DNA from: a virus
Lineage: Duplodnaviria; Heunggongvirae; Uroviricota; Caudoviricetes
Length of the DNA: 33,014 nucleotides
IMG/VR virus record: IMGVR_UViG_2713896896_000010
Location: 1 to 33,014 of that record
Direction: 5' to 3' (one strand)
The notes beneath the pieces are model-generated. The model was not told where the DNA came from, searched no databases, and was given only the letters and a program-made list of their open reading frames with translations. The position numbers were made by a program, and so were the translations under genes. Each line of letters begins with the position of its first letter. Within the stretch, counting starts at the first letter, position 1. This document shows, piece after piece, positions 2,341-12,331 of the stretch.

Positions 2341-3234
2341 ATGAGTTTAATTACGCAATTAAATGACGTAATGGCCCGTCGCGGCTATACGCAGACCCAC
2401 GTCGCCCGTGCTATTGGTCGTAGTAGCGCCGTTATCAACCAGTATTTACAGGGTAAATATCAGGGCGATATGGCTGATATTGAAGAACGCATTTCTGCCT
2501 TTGTGACCCGTGAGCGGGAAAAAGAAAACAGCCGCCGTATTAAAGCGAAATTTGTTGCCACCGGTATGGCTGCCAAAGGACTGGAGGTGCTGGCCTATGC
2601 TCACCTGGAATGTGAAATCTGCGTACTGTATGGCGCGGCAGGTCTTGGCAAAACAATGATTCTGCGTGAATACGCCGCCAGAAACCGGGATGCGGTCCTG
2701 ATTGAGGCCGATCCGGGCTATACAGCCAGGACACTGCTTGAGGAGCTGTGCCGCCAGTTGGGGGTAAAAGTTCGCGGCAATATCCACGAACTGATTGATG
2801 CATGTGTGCGAGAACTGCGTGATTCCGGTCGCCTGCTGATGGTGGACGAGGCTGAACTGCTCCCCTATCGCGCACTGGAGGTTCTGCGCCGTCTGCATGA
2901 CAAAGCGGGTATCGGGATTGTCCTGGCGGGTATGCCACGCCTTCTGATTAACCTCAAGGGACGTCGCGGTGAGTTCGCCCAGTTATACAGCCGTGTGGCG
3001 CTGGCGCTTAACCTGGGCGATACGCTGTCGCAGGAAGATTTTAACCAGATAGCTACCGGGCTGATGCCGGAAGCAGCAGAACCGGAAATCAGCGAGGCGC
3101 TCTACGCACGCTCGCTGGGTAATGCCCGCCGCCTGTTCAAACTGGCGCGCGGTGTGTACCGGATTTGTGATATCAGCGATGCACCGGTCAGCGTGCAGGC
3201 CATTGATAAATTCGCAGAAATGTTAATTCACTGA
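2341..3234 (+). CDS. Transposition target-DNA activator ATPase (MuB-like, AAA+)
   Basis: 297-aa ORF with a Walker A motif (GAAGLGKT) and a Walker B-like motif (LLMVDEAE), directly downstream of the transposase. Confidence 0.85.
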   Translation: MSLITQLNDVMARRGYTQTHVARAIGRSSAVINQYLQGKYQGDMADIEERISAFVTREREKENSRRIKAKFVATGMAAKGLEVLAYAHLECEICVLYGAAGLGKTMILREYAARNRDAVLIEADPGYTARTLLEELCRQLGVKVRGNIHELIDACVRELRDSGRLLMVDEAELLPYRALEVLRRLHDKAGIGIVLAGMPRLLINLKGRRGEFAQLYSRVALALNLGDTLSQEDFNQIATGLMPEAAEPEISEALYARSLGNARRLFKLARGVYRICDISDAPVSVQAIDKFAEMLIH

Positions 3235-3473
3235 TGGAGAACAAGACGATGGACAAGCAGACCATTAACGCCGTCCGTTCCCGTGCCCGTGTGGCCATCC
3301 ACACCACTGGTGGTCGTGTAACGGGACAACATCACCGTTTACCTGTGGTTTATGCCTGCCCGCCCGTGGGTGGTCCTGTATGGCCGGTAACGGAAATCAT
3401 CCAGACATTCAGCGGCCTGCGCCGCGTGGTGAAAACATCCTGTATCGACGGCTGCACCGTCGTATGGCAATGA
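3234..3473 (+). CDS. Hypothetical small protein
   Basis: 79-aa ORF whose ATG overlaps the MuB stop (TGATG), suggesting translational coupling. No recognisable motif. Confidence 0.5.
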   Translation: MENKTMDKQTINAVRSRARVAIHTTGGRVTGQHHRLPVVYACPPVGGPVWPVTEIIQTFSGLRRVVKTSCIDGCTVVWQ

Positions 3474-3485
3474 GAGGAAATCAGA

Positions 3486-3701
3486 ATGGCGGTTAAGTTA
3501 GAAGTAATCATCTATACCGATGAAAATAGCACGCTTCGTGTCAGGAGTATGGGGGCTGTTGATAAAAAAGGATTTACGGATGAAGAGGTCGGAGTAAGAC
3601 AACGGTTATGGGAGGTAATAAATCAAACTCTTAATAAAGAATTTGACGGCGTTGATTTATTTTCTGTTGGCGTGGAACCCTGCGCGCATAACACACATTA
3701 A
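3486..3701 (+). CDS. Hypothetical small protein (AT-rich)
   Basis: 71-aa ORF, visibly AT-richer than its neighbours by eye. Confidence 0.5.
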   Translation: MAVKLEVIIYTDENSTLRVRSMGAVDKKGFTDEEVGVRQRLWEVINQTLNKEFDGVDLFSVGVEPCAHNTH

Positions 3702-3730
3702 TCTGTAAATATCACTGAGGTAATTTAATC

Positions 3731-4375
3731 ATGACGACTGAAAATAAAGTTAAGCAATACACGAAAACTCAAGCGCCTGAAGGTTACTGGGTGGATGCCC
3801 GTGGCGTAATGACACCTGAAAGCCTTATCAAAGATATTGACCGCGACCGCGAGCAGCTGGTCGGTGAGCTTGTGGAGATGGTGATTGCTGCCTCCGCCTC
3901 ACTGCGGGAACTGAAACTACGTGCCTTTGGCGATATTCAGGCATTTATTGACCTGTCGGCGGAGAAATACGGCGCTGTGAAAGGCGGTAAAAAAGGGAAT
4001 ATCACGCTTTACAGCTTTGACGGGCGTTACAAGATTCAGCGCGCCATGCAGGACCGTATCGCGTTTGATGAACGCATTCAGACCGCGAAGTCGCTGATTG
4101 ATGACTGCCTGGCTGACTGGACGGAAGGCGCACGCCCTGAAATCAAAGCGATTATCAGCGAGGCATTCAGCACGGACAAGGAAGGTAACATTAACACCGG
4201 GCGCGTTCTGGCCCTGCGTCGCCTCGAGATTGAGGACGAACGCTGGAATAACGCCATGACGCTGATTGGTGAAGCCGTCCAGGTGATTGGCAGCAAGAGC
4301 TATATCCGCGTGTATGAGCGCGTCGGCGATTCTGACGAATATCGCGCAATCCCGCTTGATATTGCAGGGGTTTAA
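3731..4375 (+). CDS. Early-region protein, DUF3164-like (assignment from memory)
   Basis: 214-aa ORF. It sits where Mu-like phages carry gam or other semi-essential early genes. It does not resemble Mu Gam as I recall it. Confidence 0.7.
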   Translation: MTTENKVKQYTKTQAPEGYWVDARGVMTPESLIKDIDRDREQLVGELVEMVIAASASLRELKLRAFGDIQAFIDLSAEKYGAVKGGKKGNITLYSFDGRYKIQRAMQDRIAFDERIQTAKSLIDDCLADWTEGARPEIKAIISEAFSTDKEGNINTGRVLALRRLEIEDERWNNAMTLIGEAVQVIGSKSYIRVYERVGDSDEYRAIPLDIAGV

Positions 4376-4376
4376 C

Positions 4377-4610
4377 ATGCAACAAAATATCAAAGAGAAC
4401 AGAGCCGGGAACCGTTGCGCGGCGTATTCACTGGGAGCGTCAAGAGCTGAACAGCGCGGTGATTATGACGAGGCGGAAAAACTGTGGCGCAAGGCAGCGC
4501 AAAGCCCGTGTAGCACCCTGCGCCGCATCTGGGCTGAACATCGTGCGGAGTTCTGCGCTAACGCTCACCTGAAGGGATGGAGGCCACGCCATGAATGCGA
4601 AGAACTTTAA
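4377..4610 (+). CDS. Small protein, possibly an ANR-like regulator
   Basis: 77 aa from an internal ATG that overlaps the upstream stop. The pattern YSLGASRAEQRGDYDEAEKLWRKA...RIWAEHRAEFC resembles ANR-family small regulators. Weak, memory-based. Confidence 0.45.
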   Translation: MQQNIKENRAGNRCAAYSLGASRAEQRGDYDEAEKLWRKAAQSPCSTLRRIWAEHRAEFCANAHLKGWRPRHECEEL

Positions 4611-4782
4611 TAAGTTATATCCGCCTGGTACTCGTTTCATGCACATTGCACATCAGGCGGTGCGTGGCGGGCGGGTGGTAAAAACTGTTGCACCGGCCAG
4701 AGATTTTAAATGTGGTTGTGTGGTTGAAATTAATGTCGAGCCTTATTTCGTAAAAGTCGAAACGCTGAAAGCAGCACATTAA
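4591..4782 (+). CDS. Hypothetical small protein
   Basis: 63-aa ORF overlapping the end of the previous ORF. Confidence 0.4.
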   Translation: MNAKNFNKLYPPGTRFMHIAHQAVRGGRVVKTVAPARDFKCGCVVEINVEPYFVKVETLKAAH

Positions 4783-4811
4783 TTTAATTCATTTTTAATT
4801 GTTATTTAAAA

Positions 4812-4845
4812 CAGGCGTAAACCCGTCGGGGCTGGCTTACGCCTG
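4812..4845 (+). other. Stem-loop (9-bp stem CAGGCGTAA/TTACGCCTG, 16-nt loop) in the intergenic region
   Basis: Inverted repeat read directly from the sequence. Preceded by an AT-rich tract, followed by a GGAG Shine-Dalgarno and the ATG at 4863. No U-run follows. Confidence 0.4.
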
Positions 4846-4862
4846 AATCTGGAGAATTAATT

Positions 4863-5579
4863 ATGGAAAATAAAAGCAAATATATTGCCAAAATAAAAAA
4901 ACTGTTACGCCTTGCCAGAGGGACATCAAGCCCGGAAGAAGCCGCTAACGCTATTGCAAAAGCCCAGGCTTATATGCGCCAGCATGGTATCAGCGAAAAC
5001 TGCGCTGAATTGTTCGACATTCAGGAAGCGGCAAGCTCGGGTGCGCCGAGTGATGCCAGTACGCCGCCGCGTTATATGCACGTTCTGTGTGGTCTGGTCT
5101 GCAATGCCTTTGGCGTTAAGTGTTATATCTCCGGTGAGTACCGGGCCTCTGGTTTACTCAAACGTTACGTGCGTTTTTATGGCCCTGACAGCCGACCGGA
5201 AATCGCGGCTTACGCGTTTGATGTGCTTTCCCGTCAGATGATGGCTGAACGCAAAAAATATCAGGATAAACACTGCAAGCGTTGCAAACCATCCACGCGG
5301 GTGGCCCGTGGCGACCAGTTTTGTGAAGGCTGGGTCTTCGGGGCACGAAAAGTGATTGCAGTGTATGACGTCTCGCCGGAAGAAAGAAACCTCCTTGAGC
5401 TTTACAGAAAGAACCTGCACAGCACTAAAGGGCTGCGCGACGGGGATATGCGCACAGCTAAAGCGTGCCGGGGTGCAGAGTTTGCCGCTACTGCCGGTTT
5501 CATCGCCGGGAAAAACGCCAGGCTGCATCAGGGGGTTAATGGTCAGAACAACAGACCGCTGGCACTGGGGAGGGTGTAA
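4863..5579 (+). CDS. DUF2786-like protein
   Basis: 238 aa. N-terminus KIKKLLRLARGTSSPEEAANAIAKAQAYMRQHGI matches the DUF2786 signature as I remember it. Function unknown. Confidence 0.7.
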   Translation: MENKSKYIAKIKKLLRLARGTSSPEEAANAIAKAQAYMRQHGISENCAELFDIQEAASSGAPSDASTPPRYMHVLCGLVCNAFGVKCYISGEYRASGLLKRYVRFYGPDSRPEIAAYAFDVLSRQMMAERKKYQDKHCKRCKPSTRVARGDQFCEGWVFGARKVIAVYDVSPEERNLLELYRKNLHSTKGLRDGDMRTAKACRGAEFAATAGFIAGKNARLHQGVNGQNNRPLALGRV

Positions 5580-5581
5580 CG

Positions 5582-5809
5582 ATGGCTTTTAAACTTCTCA
5601 GTGTTACCGAAGCAATATACCAGCCGCCAGGAGAACGCCACGAATACAGGATGAATGACGGTAGCGCGGCGGTTGAGTTCCCCGGATATCCGGGGGCTTC
5701 CCGGTGGCGATTCTATGACAGTGCGGGACGCCGGATTATTAAAAGAACCGTGCACAACGCCATGAAAGCCGCCGTAGAGCGTCATAAAAGGAGGTTTAAC
5801 TGCAAATGA
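5582..5809 (+). CDS. Hypothetical small protein
   Basis: 75-aa ORF in a tightly packed run of small early ORFs. Confidence 0.5.
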   Translation: MAFKLLSVTEAIYQPPGERHEYRMNDGSAAVEFPGYPGASRWRFYDSAGRRIIKRTVHNAMKAAVERHKRRFNCK

Positions 5810-6030
5810 ATATTGAATTTTATGACTACGGGGTCACCGCAAAAATCATTGTTACCTGCTGGTTCTGGGAGTTCCGTCGCTATTGCCGGGTTGTGGATGC
5901 GGCGCTGTTTGTGGCCCCTGAAGTGCACCATCAGAGCGGTGGTGGTCTTTTAATGAGAACCGTCATCACCGGTAAAACGGTCCCGATGTTACGGGCGTTT
6001 AAAGTGGCAAAACAGGAGGCGGCGCAGTGA
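5806..6030 (+). CDS. Hypothetical small protein
   Basis: 74-aa ORF with an ATGA stop/start overlap with the upstream ORF. Confidence 0.5.
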   Translation: MNIEFYDYGVTAKIIVTCWFWEFRRYCRVVDAALFVAPEVHHQSGGGLLMRTVITGKTVPMLRAFKVAKQEAAQ

Positions 6031-6215
6031 ACCAGCAAACCAGAATAAGCGATAAGAGCCTGACCAGGCTGATTGCCGATGCTGACAGAATGCTTGGTAT
6101 GCGTTCTCCGGTTGTAGACAGCGAGTGGTGGACGCTCTTACGGCAGTCCCTGTTTGAACTTCAGGAGCGTCGCAGGGCTGATAGCGCAGAGCCAGTAGTA
6201 AATACAGGAGAATGA
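6027..6215 (+). CDS. Hypothetical small protein
   Basis: 62-aa ORF with an ATGA overlap with the upstream ORF. Confidence 0.5.
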   Translation: MNQQTRISDKSLTRLIADADRMLGMRSPVVDSEWWTLLRQSLFELQERRRADSAEPVVNTGE

Positions 6216-6219
6216 AACG

Positions 6220-6399
6220 ATGAAAAACCGTAAAGCAAAACTGCTTACAGCAAATCCCGGGCAGCTTATCCGCATCTCAAATCGACTTGTTGTTCGTTAT
6301 GCGCCTTCTGGCCTTGCCAGGTGGTTACCAACGCATTTTTACGGTGTCAGGCGACGTAGAAGTGCAGCCCAAAACCGCTGGAAAAATCACGGTATGTAA
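6220..6399 (+). CDS. Hypothetical small basic protein (59 aa, below the ORF-track cutoff)
   Basis: Read manually: ATG at 6220, stop at 6397-6399. Product MKNRKAKLL...RRRRSAAQNRWKNHGM is arginine/lysine-rich. It fills the gap between flanking genes. Confidence 0.3.
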   Translation: MKNRKAKLLTANPGQLIRISNRLVVRYAPSGLARWLPTHFYGVRRRRSAAQNRWKNHGM

Positions 6400-6411: not shown

Positions 6412-6822
6412 GTGAAGAAAATGATTTTTGTGGCGGCATTGCTGACCATTACCCAACAGGCGCAGGCTTCAGCAGTTATTGTGGCATCTACCGCTGCGAC
6501 CACTGCTGCCGCAGCTGCTGCGAACTCTGCGAATATCGCAAACCAACAGGCACAGCGTGCTGCTAATGCATCAGCCAGTGCTCTCCCGGTTTCTGTTAAG
6601 GGCAGTAAGCAAAATCTGGGGTTCATAACATGCGGTAAGCGTTCTTCTGAAGCTGTAGGCTCACTGGGATGTACGGTATATGGCGATGGTGAGAGCAGAG
6701 AAATTCCATGGAAAACGTGGCCCGGATACGTTCTCGGCTCGAAGCTCCCGGCCAGCTATGAAGTAAACGCCGTATCGTTTGATCACTATAACAGCGTGGC
6801 AACTGTCTATTTTACATACTGA
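6412..6822 (+). CDS. Secreted protein with N-terminal signal peptide and Ala/Thr-rich linker
   Basis: GTG start 7 nt after an AGGAGG Shine-Dalgarno. Signal-like N-terminus MKKMIFVAALLTITQQAQA, then a low-complexity A/T/N/Q stretch and a Cys-containing C-terminal domain. Confidence 0.6.
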   Translation: MKKMIFVAALLTITQQAQASAVIVASTAATTAAAAAANSANIANQQAQRAANASASALPVSVKGSKQNLGFITCGKRSSEAVGSLGCTVYGDGESREIPWKTWPGYVLGSKLPASYEVNAVSFDHYNSVATVYFTY

Positions 6823-6921
6823 GGCTCGATATGGAATTTTCTGAATCACGGAGTAACAACTCGATGAAAACTATCACCGTAACGGTTGAAATCGACGTTC
6901 CTGATAACGCGGGGTGAAAAT

Positions 6922-7173
6922 ATGAGATGGGCTGACCTTTTTATTATCGCTCTGATTGTTACGGGGATTGCGCTTTGTGTGACAACTAACAAGGCTTCTG
7001 ATGATGCGGAAAATGGGCATTGCGTGGTAAAGAGAAATTTCATCAAAACCATTACGCATTGTGATGATGGAAGCGCCACCATGACCAGCGGGGATAAGTT
7101 TATTTATTGCTCTGCGGGGAAAAATGGCACGCCATCCTGTCATGAAGTGACGCTCGGTGATGGTGATAAATAA
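6922..7173 (+). CDS. Small membrane-anchored or secreted Cys-rich protein
   Basis: Internal ATG of track ORF 6886..7173. Hydrophobic N-terminus LFIIALIVTGIALCVTT followed by a region with at least five cysteines. AT-rich. Confidence 0.45.
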   Translation: MRWADLFIIALIVTGIALCVTTNKASDDAENGHCVVKRNFIKTITHCDDGSATMTSGDKFIYCSAGKNGTPSCHEVTLGDGDK

Positions 7174-7203
7174 TTCATCATATTGAGCAGATAATAATCA
7201 AGC

Positions 7204-7231
7204 GCAGACCAAAACATATGTTTTGGTCTGC
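7204..7231. repeat. 28-bp perfect palindrome GCAGACCAAAACAT|ATGTTTTGGTCTGC
   Basis: Read directly. The 10-mer TGTTTTGGTC from the right half recurs as a direct repeat at 7241..7250. Lies in the gap upstream of the 7254 ORF. Confidence 0.8.
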
Positions 7232-7253
7232 CAAAAGTAGTGTTTTGGTCATT

Positions 7254-7532
7254 ATGAAGATTGAACAAATCGGAATGGCAGCTTTCAGGCAACAGGCTGA
7301 AAGCGGTGGCGTGGATGAGTTCGTCGTGCAGCGGTTCGGTGGTGTGTATCACCTCTTCGCTGTGAATCGCCGCGCCGGGGTGTCCTATTTTCTACAGGAA
7401 CGCCGTGGCGATTACAAGACGTGGTTGTCTCTTGACCGTGCCGCTGCGTTCTTGTCAGGGATTGGCGTTTCACGTTTTACCGTGCGTTTTGAGGATAACA
7501 AACATGCTGAAAAAGATGATCGGGGCCATTAA
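7254..7532 (+). CDS. Hypothetical protein upstream of gemA-like
   Basis: Internal ATG of track ORF 7218..7532. The 7218 ATG sits at the palindrome centre, so 7254 is preferred. Overlaps the gemA-like start. Confidence 0.4.
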   Translation: MKIEQIGMAAFRQQAESGGVDEFVVQRFGGVYHLFAVNRRAGVSYFLQERRGDYKTWLSLDRAAAFLSGIGVSRFTVRFEDNKHAEKDDRGH

Positions 7533-7902
7533 AGCTGGTCAGGCGTATCTGGGGTGGGATGATGCCCTTTATCGCCAGACGCTGGCCCGCCTGACCGGTA
7601 AAACCAGCACCACACGCTGCAATCTCGATGAACTGCGCATCATCCGGGAATACATGCACGAACAGGGATTCCCGCGCAAGGCACCCGCCGGTAAAGGTCG
7701 CCGCCCTCGTGTTGCAATGAGCAGAAAATCAGTATTATCCAAAATTGAAGCGTTGCTGGCTGATGCAGGTCGTTCCTGGGCGTATGCAGAAGGACTGGCA
7801 TCTCACATGTATAAGCAACATGTGATCGAATGGCTGACGGATGAACAGCTTTTTGGAGTGATGGTGGCGCTGGTTAAAGATTCAAGAAGGAGAAATCAAT
7901 GA
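7504..7902 (+). CDS. gemA: GemA-like regulatory protein (Mu gp16 family)
   Basis: Internal ATG of track ORF 7405..7902. N-terminal pattern KKMIGAIKAGQAYLGWDDALYRQTLARLTGKTS matches the GemA/DUF1018 signature as I recall it. Position upstream of mor-like matches Mu. Confidence 0.65.
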   Translation: MLKKMIGAIKAGQAYLGWDDALYRQTLARLTGKTSTTRCNLDELRIIREYMHEQGFPRKAPAGKGRRPRVAMSRKSVLSKIEALLADAGRSWAYAEGLASHMYKQHVIEWLTDEQLFGVMVALVKDSRRRNQ

Positions 7903-8375
7903 TGAAAAAATGGTTGTTTTGTTTAGTAGGGGTTATTTTCTCTTGTTCTGTGCTGGCACAGACAGAGGAACAGGCGCAAAAGGAACTGAAACGTTATCAG
8001 GATATGAAGCCATTGGCTGAACAGATGCTTCGGGAAAGTGGAAAACTTTATTACGCTATGCCAGAAGCTGCATCGCAGTATCAGCAGGGAAATATTGAAG
8101 AGTGGAAGAATATCAAAAAAGGACTAAAACAACTGGATGAACAGGCCAGTAAACTGGGGGACGACCCGCTTGATCCTGTGTATGGTTCCTGCATAAAAAT
8201 GAAAAACCAGCTACAGGATTACTGGTCTAACGTTATCAGGGATGACAGGCAGTTTCTGGAGCGTTCAAGAAATCAGTTTAAAGAATATCGTATGGATTGT
8301 TTTGATTCGTTTGTTTTTGGTAAAGAGCAAATAGAATCAAGAAAAGGCCTGGTTATTCTAGACCTGACTAAATAA
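7899..8375 (+). CDS. AT-rich cargo gene (moron): secreted or lipoprotein-like, helical
   Basis: 158 aa with signal-like N-terminus MMKKWLFCLVGVIFSCSVLA. Clearly AT-richer than flanking phage genes. Followed by a strong intrinsic terminator. Confidence 0.6.
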   Translation: MMKKWLFCLVGVIFSCSVLAQTEEQAQKELKRYQDMKPLAEQMLRESGKLYYAMPEAASQYQQGNIEEWKNIKKGLKQLDEQASKLGDDPLDPVYGSCIKMKNQLQDYWSNVIRDDRQFLERSRNQFKEYRMDCFDSFVFGKEQIESRKGLVILDLTK

Positions 8376-8385
8376 GACTTAGTTT

Positions 8386-8412
8386 AGCCCCTGCCATGCA
8401 GGGGCTTTTTTT
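8386..8412 (+). terminator. Rho-independent terminator
   Basis: Stem AGCCCCTGC / GCAGGGGCT with a 3-nt loop, followed by a T7 run. Read directly. Confidence 0.7.
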
Positions 8413-8418
8413 GTGGTC

Positions 8419-8446
8419 TGTACAGGCGATCATGTATGGCTATAAT
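8419..8446 (+). promoter_or_regulatory. Candidate sigma70 promoter for the mor-like gene
   Basis: Perfect TATAAT at 8441..8446. A weak -35 (TGTACA) lies 16 bp upstream. GGAG Shine-Dalgarno before the ATG at 8476. Confidence 0.3.
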
Positions 8447-8475: not shown

Positions 8476-8943
8476 ATGCAGACCTTCAGTGAAACAGATC
8501 TTCGCGATGCGCAGGCACTGCTGCCCGATTCCGTACAGCAACTGATTAGCGTGATTGGCTTCCCCGCTCTGACCCGGTTGATTCGTTCTTTTGGTGGCGT
8601 GACGTTAAGCGGTAAAACCGGCGCACACGCCGAACGCACCGGCGGTGTCCATGCCCTGTTACATGACGTGCTGACCGAAGACGAAATCAACAAACTGATC
8701 CGCTTTCTTGGCGGTGCACCGTTTTACATTCCCCGTTGTGATCATGCTTTACGTGCCCTGCGTAACACCCGTTTTATGGCTGATTTACAGCAGCATGTTA
8801 AAGGCGGTTGCTCACACCGACAGGCGCTGGCACTGCTTTGTCCCCGTTACGGGATTTCAGACCGGTATGCATGGCAACTGATACACCGACGACAAAAACA
8901 GACTTCGCTGAAAAGCCCCACCCAGGTGGGGCTTTTTGATTAA
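8476..8943 (+). CDS. mor: Mor/C-family transcriptional activator
   Basis: 155 aa. The C-terminal helix-turn-helix-like segment ...RYGISDRYAWQLI is typical of the Mor/C family. Position after gemA-like matches Mu mor. Confidence 0.65.
   Translation: MQTFSETDLRDAQALLPDSVQQLISVIGFPALTRLIRSFGGVTLSGKTGAHAERTGGVHALLHDVLTEDEINKLIRFLGGAPFYIPRCDHALRALRNTRFMADLQQHVKGGCSHRQALALLCPRYGISDRYAWQLIHRRQKQTSLKSPTQVGLFD
8914..8937 (+). terminator. Rho-independent terminator embedded in the 3' end of the mor-like gene
   Basis: GC-rich stem GCCCCACC / GGTGGGGC followed by TTTTT. Overlaps the last codons of the ORF. Confidence 0.55.
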
Positions 8944-11590: not shown

Positions 11591-12331
11591 ATGCAAAAAC
11601 AGATTATTGGTAACGCAACGTTGTATTGCGGTGATGTTCTTGATGTGCTGCCGGCGTTATCCGAACGTTTTGATGCCGTCATTACCGACCCGCCTTACAG
11701 CAGTGGTGGCATACACAAATCAGACCGCAGCATAGCCCCTTCGGACAAGTATGTCGGCCACACCCAGTATGCCGAGTTCACCGGCGATAACCGCGACCAG
11801 CGCAGCTGGGCGTTCTGGTGTTCCATGTGGATTTCTCATGCATTGCACAGGCTGAATCCCGGCGGTTATTTCATGGTGTTCAGTGACTGGCGACAACTAC
11901 CGGCACTTACCGATGCATTTCAGGCCGGTGGTGTGCTGTGGCGTGGTCTGGTTGTCTGGGATAAAACGCAGGCTTCCCGTGCGCCACACACCGGCTATTT
12001 CCGGCATCAGGCCGAGTATGTGGTCTGGGGCAGCAACGGAAAACTCGACAAATGCCCGCACGGTGGCCCGTTCCCGGGTGTGATTACGCAGCGCGTTGTC
12101 CCGTCCGAAAAACTGCACATGACCGCAAAGCCGGTTCAGCTGATGGCCGAGCTGGTTAAACCGCTGGCACCGGATGCGCACGTTCTCGATCCGTTTATGG
12201 GAAGCGGCACTACCGCCATCCCTGTACTTGCCCGTGGCGGACGGTTTACCGGCATTGAAATGACTAACCAGTATTTTGATATCGCCTGCGCACGTATCGA
12301 AAAAGCGCAGGCAGAAGCAGTGCAGGTGTGA
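11591..12331 (+). CDS. DNA N6-adenine/N4-cytosine methyltransferase (DPPY motif)
   Basis: Catalytic motif FDAVITDPPY near the N-terminus and an AdoMet-binding motif FMGSGTT near the C-terminus. No adjacent restriction endonuclease gene. Confidence 0.8.
   Translation: MQKQIIGNATLYCGDVLDVLPALSERFDAVITDPPYSSGGIHKSDRSIAPSDKYVGHTQYAEFTGDNRDQRSWAFWCSMWISHALHRLNPGGYFMVFSDWRQLPALTDAFQAGGVLWRGLVVWDKTQASRAPHTGYFRHQAEYVVWGSNGKLDKCPHGGPFPGVITQRVVPSEKLHMTAKPVQLMAELVKPLAPDAHVLDPFMGSGTTAIPVLARGGRFTGIEMTNQYFDIACARIEKAQAEAVQV

What the first reader, a model, noticed from the sequence alone, without database searches (positions are those of the whole stretch)
3234..6399. Early accessory block of about ten small, translationally coupled ORFs with no assignable function
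Between MuB and the gemA-like gene, where Mu carries kil, gam and other host-takeover genes, this phage has a run of short ORFs. Many have ATGA or TGATG stop/start overlaps. None resembles Mu Gam or Kil as I recall them. Such early-region blocks in transposable phages are common hiding places for anti-defence or host-shutoff factors, and composition varies from ORF to ORF, suggesting mosaic acquisition.
Basis: inference. Interest (0 to 1): 0.5.

Follow-up and report, generated by a model that had tools for sequence, protein, structure and literature searches.

The report
Mu-like prophage early accessory gene block

Summary
Window 3234-6399 carries ten same-strand, tightly packed ORFs (95% coding), all under purifying selection. 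It lies between MuB and GemA in an E. coli Mu-like prophage. It is the counterpart of Mu's semi-essential early region, so the kind is known.

"No assignable function" is only partly right:
- o1 is a Kil homologue (profile-profile probability 92%, same 74 aa, same position).
- o4 is an ANR-family small regulator.
- o3 is DUF3164 and o6 is DUF2786/DUF7168.
- Six ORFs remain orphans.

There is no Gam. Instead, DUF3164 fills the gam slot:
- 0 of 80 DUF3164 loci carry Gam, and 0 of 80 Gam loci carry DUF3164.
- The two genes replace each other between 95-98% identical flanks in two Pseudomonas phage lineages.
- They occupy the same syntenic slot in enterobacterial relatives.
- They share no detectable sequence or fold similarity.

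I infer that DUF3164 is a non-homologous functional substitute for Gam. This is not shown.

Only two junctions have true 4-base overlaps. Mosaicism is real and is concentrated at the o5-o6 gap. That gap holds a conserved AT-rich-plus-hairpin element, also present in Mu just after gam, and copies of it precede extra cassettes in relatives. No anti-defence function was demonstrated.

The parts
2341..3234 (+). MuB-like AAA+ transposition ATPase. Upstream boundary of the block.
   Evidence: Pfam AAA_22 and TniB hits. PGAP names it an AAA family ATPase.
3249..3473 (+). o1: Kil homologue, 74 aa. An alternative in-frame ATG at 3234 overlaps the MuB stop.
   Evidence: PHROG 2679 'Kil', E 8e-38. hhalign of the o1 family against the Mu Kil family gives 91.8%, E 7.5e-7. 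It has the same length and position as Mu Kil and a shared C-terminal GCxVIW motif. dN/dS is about 0.
3486..3701 (+). o2: acidic 71-aa orphan protein with low GC (0.41).
   Evidence: PHROG 7438, E 8e-20. Found in only about 7 of 80 related loci. dN/dS 0.42.
3731..4375 (+). o3: DUF3164 protein, 214 aa, acidic. It occupies the gam slot.
   Evidence: PF11363, E 3e-81. Mutually exclusive with Gam in 160 loci. Swapped with gam in LPB1/D3112 and H71/H72. Same slot as Gam in L142, L143 and L148. AF2 model has pLDDT 82, with no structural or profile match to Gam/Ku.
4377..4610 (+). o4: ANR-family (AraC negative regulator) small protein, 77 aa.
   Evidence: NCBIfam NF033650, 58 bits against a cut-off of 32. 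All 7 published signature residues are present (and the sequence). One TPR-like helix-turn-helix. dN/dS 0.06.
4591..4782 (+). o5: basic 63-aa protein that overlaps o4 by 20 nt. The most conserved partner of the gam/DUF3164 slot.
   Evidence: PHROG 5591, E 3e-41. Present in 69 of 80 DUF3164 loci and also after Gam+ANR in L142, L143 and L148. 264 clusters, all about 63 aa, Enterobacterales only, unnamed.
4783..4862 (+). Conserved intergenic element: phased TTAA boxes plus the hairpin GGCGTAA-N16-TTACGCC (4814-4843). It sits at a cassette-insertion hotspot.
   Evidence: Present on the + strand in 114 of 167 loci, including Mu itself 46 nt after gam. Pairing and covariation exceed the controls. 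Extra copies precede the extra ORFs in L142, L143 and L008; L006 also holds two copies. 74 of 75 further IMG/VR matches lie in Mu-like early regions. No Rfam family matches.
4863..5579 (+). o6: DUF2786 + DUF7168 protein, 238 aa, strongly basic (+17).
5582..5809 (+). o7: basic 75-aa protein. Not annotated by PGAP in the identical RefSeq genome.
   Evidence: PHROG 9400, E 4e-40. Present in 44 of 80 loci at a median 42% identity, and in 30 of the 44 loci that have o6. dN/dS 0.11. PGAP leaves a gap at L001 8347-8572.
5806..6030 (+). o8: 74-aa orphan with an ATGA overlap with o7.
   Evidence: PHROG 1001, E 5e-36. dN/dS 0.23. Found only in close relatives, plus L142 and L143.
6027..6215 (+). o9: 62-aa orphan with a GTG start and a GTGA overlap with o8.
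   Evidence: PHROG 14672, E 2e-25. dN/dS 0.33. Variable among relatives (69-87% aa identity).
6220..6399 (+). o10: very basic 59-aa orphan (pI 12). The weakest gene call.
   Evidence: PHROG 1380, E 2e-11. dN/dS 0.56. The conserved C-terminal motif SAAQNRWKNH sits on variable N-termini.
6412..7532 (+). Continuation of the same accessory region: o11 (signal peptide), o12 and o13, running up to gemA.
   Evidence: ORFs. PGAP calls them hypothetical. No Pfam hits.
7504..7902 (+). GemA homologue. Downstream landmark of the region.
   Evidence: PF06252, E 1.5e-18.

Best explanation
[quoted passage not shown] It is most likely transcribed as part of the early operon that starts upstream of ner, A and B.

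**Shown**
- Ten real genes in one orientation.
- o1 is a homologue of Mu Kil, the host-killing and cell-morphology gene that follows B in Mu.
- o4 is a member of the ANR family. Those are small proteins under 10 kDa that act by binding AraC/XylS regulators and H-NS, not DNA.
- o3 (DUF3164) occupies the position that gam occupies in Mu and is strictly alternative to gam.
- The core order is conserved across Enterobacterales Mu-like prophages: gam-or-DUF3164, then (ANR), o5, hairpin, (DUF2786), (o7). o2 and o8-o10 are lineage-specific cargo.

**Inferred**
- After induction or infection, Kil arrests host division.
- DUF3164 does the job of Gam, protecting phage DNA ends from host exonuclease (RecBCD). 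Because it is acidic and unrelated to the Ku-like Gam fold, it probably acts on the nuclease rather than by capping DNA.
- The ANR protein titrates H-NS and/or AraC-type regulators to relieve silencing of phage or host genes.
- The basic proteins o5, o6 and o7 are nucleic-acid-binding helpers of unknown role.
- The AT-rich-plus-hairpin element marks the point where accessory cassettes are exchanged by recombination. It may also act on the mRNA.
For: **Identity and context**
- The window is 100% identical to NZ_CP151045. The block occurs in 62 of 5426 complete E. coli genomes.
- The flanking genes are Ner-like, Mu transposase, MuB, GemA and Mor. Late Mu-type genes follow.
[quoted passage not shown] The annotated Mu record agrees.

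**The genes are real**
- PHROG hits for all ten and dN/dS of 0-0.56.
- No promoter-like or terminator-like sites above chance inside the block. The first strong terminator is at 8386-8406.

**Kil**.

**ANR**
- NF033650 above its cut-off.
- Signature residues A21, E25, A33, W37, A40, W52 and R56 match A10, E14, A22, W26, A29, W43 and R47 of PMC4983702.
- Binding of ANR proteins to H-NS is reported in PMC5570504.

**DUF3164 in the gam slot**
- 0 of 80 and 0 of 80 co-occurrence.
- LPB1 against D3112: flanks 95-97% identical around a gam-for-DUF3164 replacement.
- H71 against H72: flanks 97-98% identical.
- In L142, L143 and L148 Gam ends 4 nt before the ANR gene, just as DUF3164 ends 1 nt before it here.
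- Roseophages that lack Gam carry DUF3164 (PMC5488378).
- DUF3164 is found in 209 phage records across Pseudomonas, Ralstonia, Burkholderia, Vibrio, Mannheimia and Rhodobacter.

**Conserved core**.
Against: - No functional test of any product exists.
- The slot lies next to a recombination hotspot, so unrelated cargo could alternate there.
- In D3112-type phages the replaced piece is gam plus a 93-codon ORF, not gam alone. In H71/H72 a six-gene module is exchanged.
- The loci sampled are phylogenetically related, so 0 of 160 overstates independence.
- o4 has no AraC/XylS partner in the prophage. It is not close to plasmid-borne ANRs such as Aar.
- Transcription as a single operon is inferred from the absence of signals, not observed.
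Confidence: 0.7

Rival explanations
1. The block is mainly an anti-defence island. Several of the small ORFs would be dedicated inhibitors of restriction-modification, CRISPR or abortive-infection systems, acquired piecemeal.
For: - Gene content at o2, at o8-o10 and at the o5-o6 hotspot turns over between close relatives.
- GC content differs by ORF.
- One hotspot cassette in a relative has a weak Lar (restriction alleviation) hit, E 0.006, below the cut-off.
- Early regions of Pseudomonas Mu-like phages hold accessory genes thought to be adaptive (PMC4378225).
- If DUF3164 inhibits RecBCD, it would itself count as counter-defence.
Against: - No ORF matches a known anti-defence or defence family.
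- The larger part of the block (o1, o3, o4, o5, o6, o7) is syntenic across Enterobacterales and under strong purifying selection, with dN/dS of 0-0.14. That is not the pattern of rapidly exchanged counter-defence cargo.
- The known anti-CRISPR loci of Mu-like phages lie in the late region, between core ORFs 27 and 28, not here.
Confidence: 0.2
2. DUF3164 has nothing to do with Gam's function. The gam slot is simply a recombination-prone position where alternative early modules sit. DUF3164 serves another early role, for example in transposition, replication or nucleoid handling, or as a virion-associated protein.
For: - No homology or fold similarity to Gam.
- The charge differs: pI 5.1 against 7.8.
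- The exchanged segments are not one-for-one in D3112/LPB1 or H71/H72.
- The DUF3164 protein was detected in roseophage particle proteomics together with transposase B (PMC5488378).
Against: - Complementarity is strict in 160 loci.
- The alternation is seen between near-identical flanks in two Pseudomonas lineages, plus syntenic slot equivalence in distantly related enterobacterial loci.
- DUF3164 is near-universal in Gam-less Mu-like phages from alpha-, beta- and gammaproteobacteria. This is the pattern expected of non-orthologous displacement of a needed function.
Confidence: 0.35
3. Some of the ORFs are lysogenic-conversion morons expressed from the repressed prophage, for example from a promoter in the AT-rich element before o6. 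They would alter host physiology (ANR acting on H-NS or AraC regulons) rather than serve lytic growth.
For: - ANR proteins are known as modulators of virulence regulons.
- Each hotspot cassette has its own AT-rich-plus-hairpin unit.
- Downstream ORFs o11, o12 and o15 have signal-peptide-like N-termini and low GC.
Against: - The AT-rich stretch is not a convincing sigma-70 promoter; the scan at 4783-4813 found none.
- o4 lies upstream of the element and is translationally abutted to DUF3164 (1-nt gap), so it is tied to the early operon.
- There are no expression data.
Confidence: 0.12
4. Part of the ORF series is spurious, made of chance reading frames in non-coding early DNA.
For: - PGAP does not call o7.
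- o10 has dN/dS 0.56, pI 12 and a variable N-terminus.
Against: - All ten match PHROG families with E values from 2e-11 to 4e-94.
- o7 is conserved at the protein level in 44 diverged loci, with dN/dS 0.11.
- Every ORF has a Shine-Dalgarno sequence.
Confidence: 0.05

Closest known systems
Semi-essential early (SEE) region of bacteriophage Mu (kil, E5-E8, gam, E10-E15, gemA, mor)
   Same: - Same position between B and gemA/mor and same orientation.
- Same style of short, closely packed genes.
- The first gene is a Kil homologue of identical length.
- The same AT-rich-plus-hairpin element lies downstream of the gam slot (Mu 6368-6397).
-.
   Different: - Apart from Kil, GemA and Mor, no protein is shared with Mu (blastp).
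- gam is replaced by DUF3164.
- An ANR gene, o5, DUF2786/DUF7168 and o7 are present, and Mu lacks them.
Mu Gam / Ku-like DNA-end-binding host-nuclease inhibitor (PF07352)
   Same: - DUF3164 has the same genomic slot and the same early expression context.
- Its distribution is complementary to Gam's.
- It is of similar size (214 against 174 aa).
- Both have a long helix followed by beta-hairpins. For DUF3164 this comes from the model's secondary structure. For Gam it is my reading of the sequence.
   Different: - No profile similarity (hhalign 0.2%).
- No structural match.
- DUF3164 is acidic and Gam is near-neutral.
- DUF3164 is therefore not a member of the Gam family.
ANR (AraC Negative Regulator) family: Aar of enteroaggregative E. 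coli, Cnr, Rnr
   Same: - Small size: 77 aa, under 10 kDa.
- Matches the NCBIfam ANR model above its cut-off.
- All seven signature residues are present.
-.
   Different: - Encoded in a phage early operon rather than next to an AraC/XylS virulence regulator.
- No AraC-family gene in the prophage.
- Too diverged from plasmid-borne ANRs to be found by tblastn, except in 5 plasmids.
- Has a C-terminal extension.
- The loop between helices 2 and 3 is 2 residues shorter.
Variable small-gene regions of other temperate phages: nin region of lambdoid phages, RGP C of Pseudomonas Mu-like phages
   Same: Short, closely packed, dispensable-looking genes under 100 codons, shared patchily among relatives (PMC4378225).
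   Different: Here about half of the block is a conserved syntenic core under strong purifying selection, not purely variable cargo.
PeSL (promoter-early stem-loop) cassettes of T4-type phages, and boundary sequences of lambdoid phages (recalled from the literature, not re-read here)
   Same: A short, conserved, AT-rich-plus-stem-loop intergenic unit is repeated in front of accessory ORFs in a hyperplastic region. It gives homology for modular shuffling.
   Different: - No convincing sigma-70 promoter in the AT-rich part.
- Only one copy in this window.
- The function is untested.
- The primary sequence of the stem is conserved far more than pairing alone would require.

Membership tests
Mu-type SEE (semi-essential early) region | Lies between transposition gene B and gemA/mor, on the early-operon strand | tested here: met
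   MuB 2341-3234, GemA 7504-7902 and Mor 8476-8943, all on the + strand.
Mu-type SEE (semi-essential early) region | Contains kil directly after B | tested here: met
   o1 against the Mu Kil family: hhalign 91.8%, E 7.5e-7. Both are 74 aa.
Mu-type SEE (semi-essential early) region | Contains gam | tested here: not met
   No Gam hit in the window at E up to 10, beyond noise. None in blastp against Mu proteins.
Mu-type SEE (semi-essential early) region | Dispensable for plaque formation; transcribed from the early promoter | not testable with these tools
   The only evidence is that no terminators or promoters above chance occur inside the block.
Kil (Mu gp5) family | About 74-aa basic protein, first gene after B, C-terminal ...R.V...GC.(I/V)IW motif | tested here: met
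   o1 is 74 aa with pI 10.3 and ends ...SCIDGCTVVWQ. Mu Kil has pI 10.2 and ends ...ARLNGCQIIWR. Bridging sequences in L031, L034, L074 and L146 are hit by both queries.
Kil (Mu gp5) family | Expression kills the host or alters cell division | not testable with these tools
   Needs an expression experiment.
ANR (AraC negative regulator) family | Matches the family model above the curated threshold | tested here: met
   NF033650: 58 bits against a cut-off of 32, E 6e-16.
ANR (AraC negative regulator) family | Under 10 kDa, with the seven conserved residues A10, E14, A22, W26, A29, W43 and R47 (PMC4983702) | tested here: met
   77 aa. A21, E25, A33, W37, A40, W52 and R56 align with the signature, with a 2-residue shorter loop (and the sequence).
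ANR (AraC negative regulator) family | Three alpha-helices | not tested
   Only a TPR-like helix-turn-helix match over residues 11-42 was seen.
ANR (AraC negative regulator) family | Accompanies a cognate AraC/XylS regulator | tested here: not met
   No AraC/XylS gene is annotated anywhere in the prophage.
ANR (AraC negative regulator) family | Binds AraC-family proteins and/or H-NS | not testable with these tools
   Needs two-hybrid or pull-down experiments.
Gam (PF07352, Ku-like) | Sequence or profile similarity to Gam | tested here: not met
   o3 family against Gam family: hhalign probability 0.2%. No Pfam Gam hit.
Gam (PF07352, Ku-like) | Ku-like fold | tested here: not met
Gam (PF07352, Ku-like) | Protects linear DNA from host exonucleases | not testable with these tools
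   Only positional equivalence and mutual exclusivity are available.
DUF3164 (PF11363) | Full-length match to the family model | tested here: met
   E 2.9e-81, profile positions 1-193 of 194. PHROG 846, E 4e-94.
DUF2786 / DUF7168 | N-terminal DUF2786 helix pair plus the DUF7168 domain | tested here: met
   PF10979, 4.9e-13 (residues 6-45), and PF23771, 2e-29 (residues 62-189).
Known anti-defence or defence proteins | Similarity to a described system | tested here: not met
   PADLOC gives no significant hit; the only one is o7 against E2, E 0.005. Pfam, NCBIfam and PHROGs give none. No dedicated anti-defence library was available.

The most novel reading that the evidence does not exclude
DUF3164 is a structurally new class of host-nuclease (RecBCD) antagonist or DNA-end protector. 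The family has over 3000 sequence clusters and no known function. It would have displaced the Ku-like Gam in most Mu-like transposable phages. In addition, the AT-rich-plus-hairpin element shared with Mu is the recombination and regulatory 'linker' through which early accessory cassettes are shuffled.
Probability: 0.3. Interest if true: 0.7.

Novelty: new variant of a known kind. Interest (0 to 1): 0.5.

Why it matters
As a gene block it is ordinary. Every Mu-like phage has such a region, and its variability is known. Three specific leads are useful.

1. **DUF3164.** A large domain-of-unknown-function family gets a concrete, cheaply testable hypothesis: it is a functional substitute for Gam. 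The support is strict mutual exclusivity and repeated replacement at the same slot. If true, it adds a new type of RecBCD/exonuclease antagonist. That would bear on phage counter-defence, on retron-type guards that sense RecBCD inhibition, and on recombineering tools.
2. **ANR in a phage operon.** An ANR-family protein in a phage early operon with no AraC partner suggests that phages use this fold against H-NS-type silencing.
3. **The hairpin element.** A conserved hairpin, present in Mu itself but not annotated in the Mu record examined here, marks a cassette hotspot. It gives a handle on how early regions of transposable phages are remodelled.

Tried and rejected
- **Megablast of the block against 50,697 phage genomes:** no match. 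The element is known only as prophages.
- **tblastn against phage genomes:** no match for o1 or o4.
- **PADLOC:** nothing significant.
- **PDB sequence searches:** nothing for o3, o5, o6 and o7, as single sequences or profiles. o4 hits only designed TPR repeats.
- **Literature:** no functional paper on DUF3164 or DUF2786, and none on a hairpin after Mu gam.
- **Rfam:** no family for the hairpin.
- **Hairpin as an intrinsic terminator on the + strand:** rejected, because no U-run follows it. On the minus strand a T-rich run does follow it, so a terminator for antisense transcription is not excluded.
- **AT-rich stretch as a sigma-70 promoter:** not supported by the scan.
- **Pfam on ten cassettes found at the o5-o6 hotspot in relatives:** only DUF7448 and a sub-threshold Lar-like hit.
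- **Homologue search with the o5 profile:** 264 unnamed 63-aa proteins, no fusions, no domains.

Full report
**What the window is.** The block 3234-6399 is 100% identical to a stretch of the chromosome of E. coli 20KM0223N (NZ_CP151045). It occurs, at 90% identity or more in most cases, in 62 of 5426 complete E. coli genomes. It has no near-identical counterpart among 50,697 sequenced phages. In the RefSeq record the element sits between yeiQ and yeiP. Its gene order is: repressor-like HTH, Ner-like HTH, Mu transposase, MuB-like ATPase, the block, three more small ORFs, GemA, one ORF, Mor, lysis genes, a DNA methyltransferase, terminase, Mu-type head and tail genes and a DNA-circularisation protein (Pfam). 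It is therefore a Mu-like transposable prophage. [quoted passage not shown]

**Check of the observation.**
- Ten + strand ORFs fill the interval. Coordinates are in the parts list. About 95% of the block is coding.
- All ten match PHROG families, with E values from 2e-11 to 4e-94.
- Against related loci, Nei-Gojobori dN/dS is: o1 about 0, o4 0.06, o3 0.11, o7 0.11, o6 0.12, o5 0.14, o8 0.23, o9 0.33, o2 0.42 and o10 0.56. MuB gives 0.09. The ORFs are real genes. o10 is the least secure.
- PGAP leaves o7 unannotated in the identical genome. It is nevertheless conserved at a median 42% identity in 44 diverged loci.
- Junctions read from the sequence: true 4-base overlaps occur only at o7/o8 (ATGA) and o8/o9 (GTGA). 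o4/o5 overlap by 20 nt, and this is conserved in relatives. o3/o4, o6/o7 and o9/o10 are separated by 1, 2 and 4 nt. The remaining gaps are 12, 29 and 80 nt.
- The TGATG at the MuB stop is probably not used. All 18 distinct o1 homologues are about 74 aa, and those closest to o1 begin M(D/E)K. A GGAG lies 8 nt upstream of the ATG at 3249. PGAP also starts the gene there.
- Each ORF has its own Shine-Dalgarno sequence.
- Promoter-like and terminator-like sites inside the block are no more frequent than in shuffled sequence. The first strong terminator is at 8386-8406, followed by a promoter-like site before mor. This fits one early polycistronic transcript, but that is an inference.

**What the genes are.**
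- **o1 (Kil).** It hits PHROG 2679 'Kil', E 8e-38. Direct blastp against Mu Kil finds only the last 25 residues (36% identity). However, both proteins are 74 aa, both are basic (pI 10.3 and 10.2), both are the first gene after B, and both end in GCx(V/I)IW. Intermediate sequences from four loci are hit by both queries. A profile-profile comparison of the two families, with the bridging sequences left out, gives 91.8% probability, E 7.5e-7, over 63 columns.
- **o4 (ANR).** It matches the NCBIfam ANR model at 58 bits against a cut-off of 32. It carries all seven residues of the published ANR signature (PMC4983702). ANR proteins act by binding AraC/XylS regulators and H-NS rather than DNA (PMC4983702, PMC5570504). 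There is no AraC-family gene in the prophage. o4 is too diverged from plasmid ANRs to be found by tblastn, except in five plasmids. It is absent from sequenced phages.
- **o3 (DUF3164).** Full-length DUF3164, E 3e-81.
- **o6 (DUF2786 plus DUF7168)**. Neither o3's family nor o6's has any functional literature or solved relative.
- **o2, o5, o7, o8, o9 and o10.** These are orphans. The o5 family comprises 264 clusters of unnamed 63-aa proteins, all from Enterobacterales.
- **Defence-system models.** PADLOC finds nothing significant.

**Comparative anatomy.** I fetched 80 IMG/VR loci that encode DUF3164 (58-100% identity) and mapped all window genes onto them.
- A syntenic core emerges: MuA, MuB, 0.4-1 kb of variable small genes, DUF3164, ANR (41 of 80), o5 (69 of 80), DUF2786 (44 of 80), o7 (44 of 80), variable genes, GemA, Mor.
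- The Kil-like gene is detectable in 17 loci.
- o2, o8, o9 and o10 occur only in the roughly seven closest relatives.
- The block is therefore about half conserved core and half lineage-specific cargo.
- Among close relatives, adjacent genes show abruptly different divergence. Against L007, for example, o7 is 99% identical and o9 is 69%. Whole genes are inserted or replaced, including DUF7448, DUF4752 and Ead/Ea22-like genes.
The support comes from comparison rather than from composition alone, although GC does range from 0.41 to 0.58 per ORF.

**DUF3164 sits in the gam slot.** This is the most informative result.
- None of the 80 DUF3164 loci encodes Gam (tblastn with Mu and D3112 Gam).
- None of 80 IMG/VR loci fetched with Gam encodes DUF3164, even when diverged Pseudomonas and Mannheimia DUF3164 queries are used.
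- Pseudomonas phages LPB1 and D3112 are 97% and 95% identical on either side of a segment that is DUF3164 in LPB1. In D3112 that segment is gam plus a 93-codon ORF.
- Pseudomonas phages H71 and H72 are 97-98% identical on both flanks of a 2.5-2.9 kb module. DUF3164 (H71) and Gam (H72) lie at the same position within it.
- In three enterobacterial contigs (L142, L143, L148) the order is MuB, Kil-like..., Gam, ANR, o5..., DUF2786, o7, (o8), GemA, Mor. Gam ends 4 nt before the ANR gene, just as DUF3164 ends 1 nt before it in the window.
- DUF3164 occurs in 209 phage records from Ralstonia, Pseudomonas, Burkholderia, Vibrio, Mannheimia, Rhodobacter and others. An independent paper notes roseophages that lack Gam and carry DUF3164 (PMC5488378).
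- I therefore reject 'remote Gam homologue'. I propose non-orthologous displacement: DUF3164 supplies the Gam function of protecting phage DNA from host exonuclease. Given its charge, it may act on the nuclease rather than by capping ends.
- This rests on position and distribution only. Three points weaken it. The slot lies next to a recombination hotspot. The exchanged segments are not always one gene for one gene. The sampled loci are phylogenetically related.

**A conserved non-coding element inside the block.**
- The 80-nt o5-o6 gap (4783-4862) holds three phased TTAA boxes followed by the hairpin GGCGTAA-N16-TTACGCC (4814-4843).
- The motif GGCGYRA-N12-20-TYRCGCC occurs once in the window, against 0.08 expected. 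It occurs in 114 of the 167 loci then held, always on the operon strand.
- It is present in phage Mu itself, 46 nt after the gam stop, as GGCGCGA...TCGCGCC. That is two compensatory pair changes. The annotated Mu record examined shows no feature there.
- On an alignment of 39 distinct copies, 84.6% of cells pair and 7 pairs show double changes. All measures exceed the shuffled and slid controls. The outer stem is almost invariant in sequence, which points to sequence-specific recognition as well as structure.
- The gap is an insertion hotspot, holding 0 to 3 extra genes in relatives. In L142, L143 and L008 each extra ORF is preceded by its own copy of the element; L006 also holds two copies.
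- A scan of IMG/VR for one exact variant found 94 stretches. Of the 75 new loci, 74 are Mu-like early regions with the element in operon orientation.
- No Rfam family matches.
- It is not a + strand intrinsic terminator, because no U-run follows. On the minus strand a T-rich run does follow. The AT-rich part is not a convincing sigma-70 promoter.
- I regard it as a conserved cassette-boundary or regulatory element, comparable in layout to the PeSL units of T4-type phages (recalled, not re-read). Its function is unknown.

**Anti-defence question.**
- Nothing here demonstrates anti-defence activity, and no library of anti-defence families was available.
- The cassettes found at the hotspot in relatives are unknowns. 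The exceptions are DUF7448 and one sub-threshold Lar-like hit.
- The conserved core looks like standard early phage functions.
- The variable ORFs (o2, o8-o10) and the hotspot are the plausible places to look for counter-defence cargo. DUF3164 would itself qualify if it antagonises RecBCD.

**Verdict.** The block is a new variant of a known kind. It has a Kil homologue, a gam-to-DUF3164 displacement, a phage-borne ANR and a conserved hairpin shared with Mu. The main value lies in the testable DUF3164 hypothesis and in the hairpin element.

Noticed in passing
window 4783-4862 (hairpin 4814-4843); also L003 (phage Mu) 6368-6397; L142 10967, 11426 and 11885: A conserved AT-rich-plus-hairpin element (GGCGTAA-N16-TTACGCC) lies after the gam/DUF3164 module. 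It is present in Mu itself, with compensatory changes. It is always in operon orientation, and copies precede the extra cassettes at this insertion hotspot in relatives. It has no Rfam family and no annotation.
   Followed up: yes
window 5582-5809: o7 is not annotated by PGAP in the 100% identical RefSeq genome (gap at L001 8347-8572). It is nevertheless conserved in 44 diverged loci, with dN/dS 0.11 and a PHROG 9400 hit of 4e-40.
   Followed up: yes
window 6412-6822, 6922-7173 and 7899-8375: Three ORFs flanking gemA have signal-peptide or lipoprotein-like N-termini, and two of them have low GC (o12 0.45, o15 0.40; o11 is 0.51). They are moron-like, and might act in surface exclusion or host modification. 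None has a Pfam hit.
   Followed up: no
window 8386-8446: A strong intrinsic terminator (9-bp stem with 7 GC pairs, followed by T7) is followed directly by the best promoter-like site in the region (TGTACA-16-TATAAT), just upstream of mor. This is probably the end of the early transcript and a separate promoter for mor.
   Followed up: no
window about 11591-12331 (L001 14358-15098): A DNA methyltransferase gene lies immediately upstream of the large terminase. It is a candidate anti-restriction self-methylation function outside the block.
   Followed up: no
L086 (D3112) 2995-3795 compared with L257 (DMS3) 1495-2296: The 266-aa 'gam' of D3112 appears to be an annotation fusion or frameshift of gam (about 172 aa) with the following 93-codon ORF. 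That ORF has inherited the name 'host nuclease inhibitor' in DMS3.
   Followed up: partly
homologue names; phage POA1180: Many DUF3164 proteins are labelled 'sulfate transporter' in UniRef and GenBank. For a soluble 214-aa phage early protein this looks like a propagated misannotation.
   Followed up: no
L024 and L025, cassette between o5 and o6 (58-aa CxxC...CxxC protein): A hotspot cassette in a relative has a sub-threshold hit to the Lar restriction-alleviation family (E 0.006, 17 bits against a cut-off of 28.6).
   Followed up: partly
PMC5488378: DUF3164 protein was detected by mass spectrometry in purified particles of two roseophages, together with transposase B. It is either abundant early protein carried over or truly particle-associated.
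   Followed up: no
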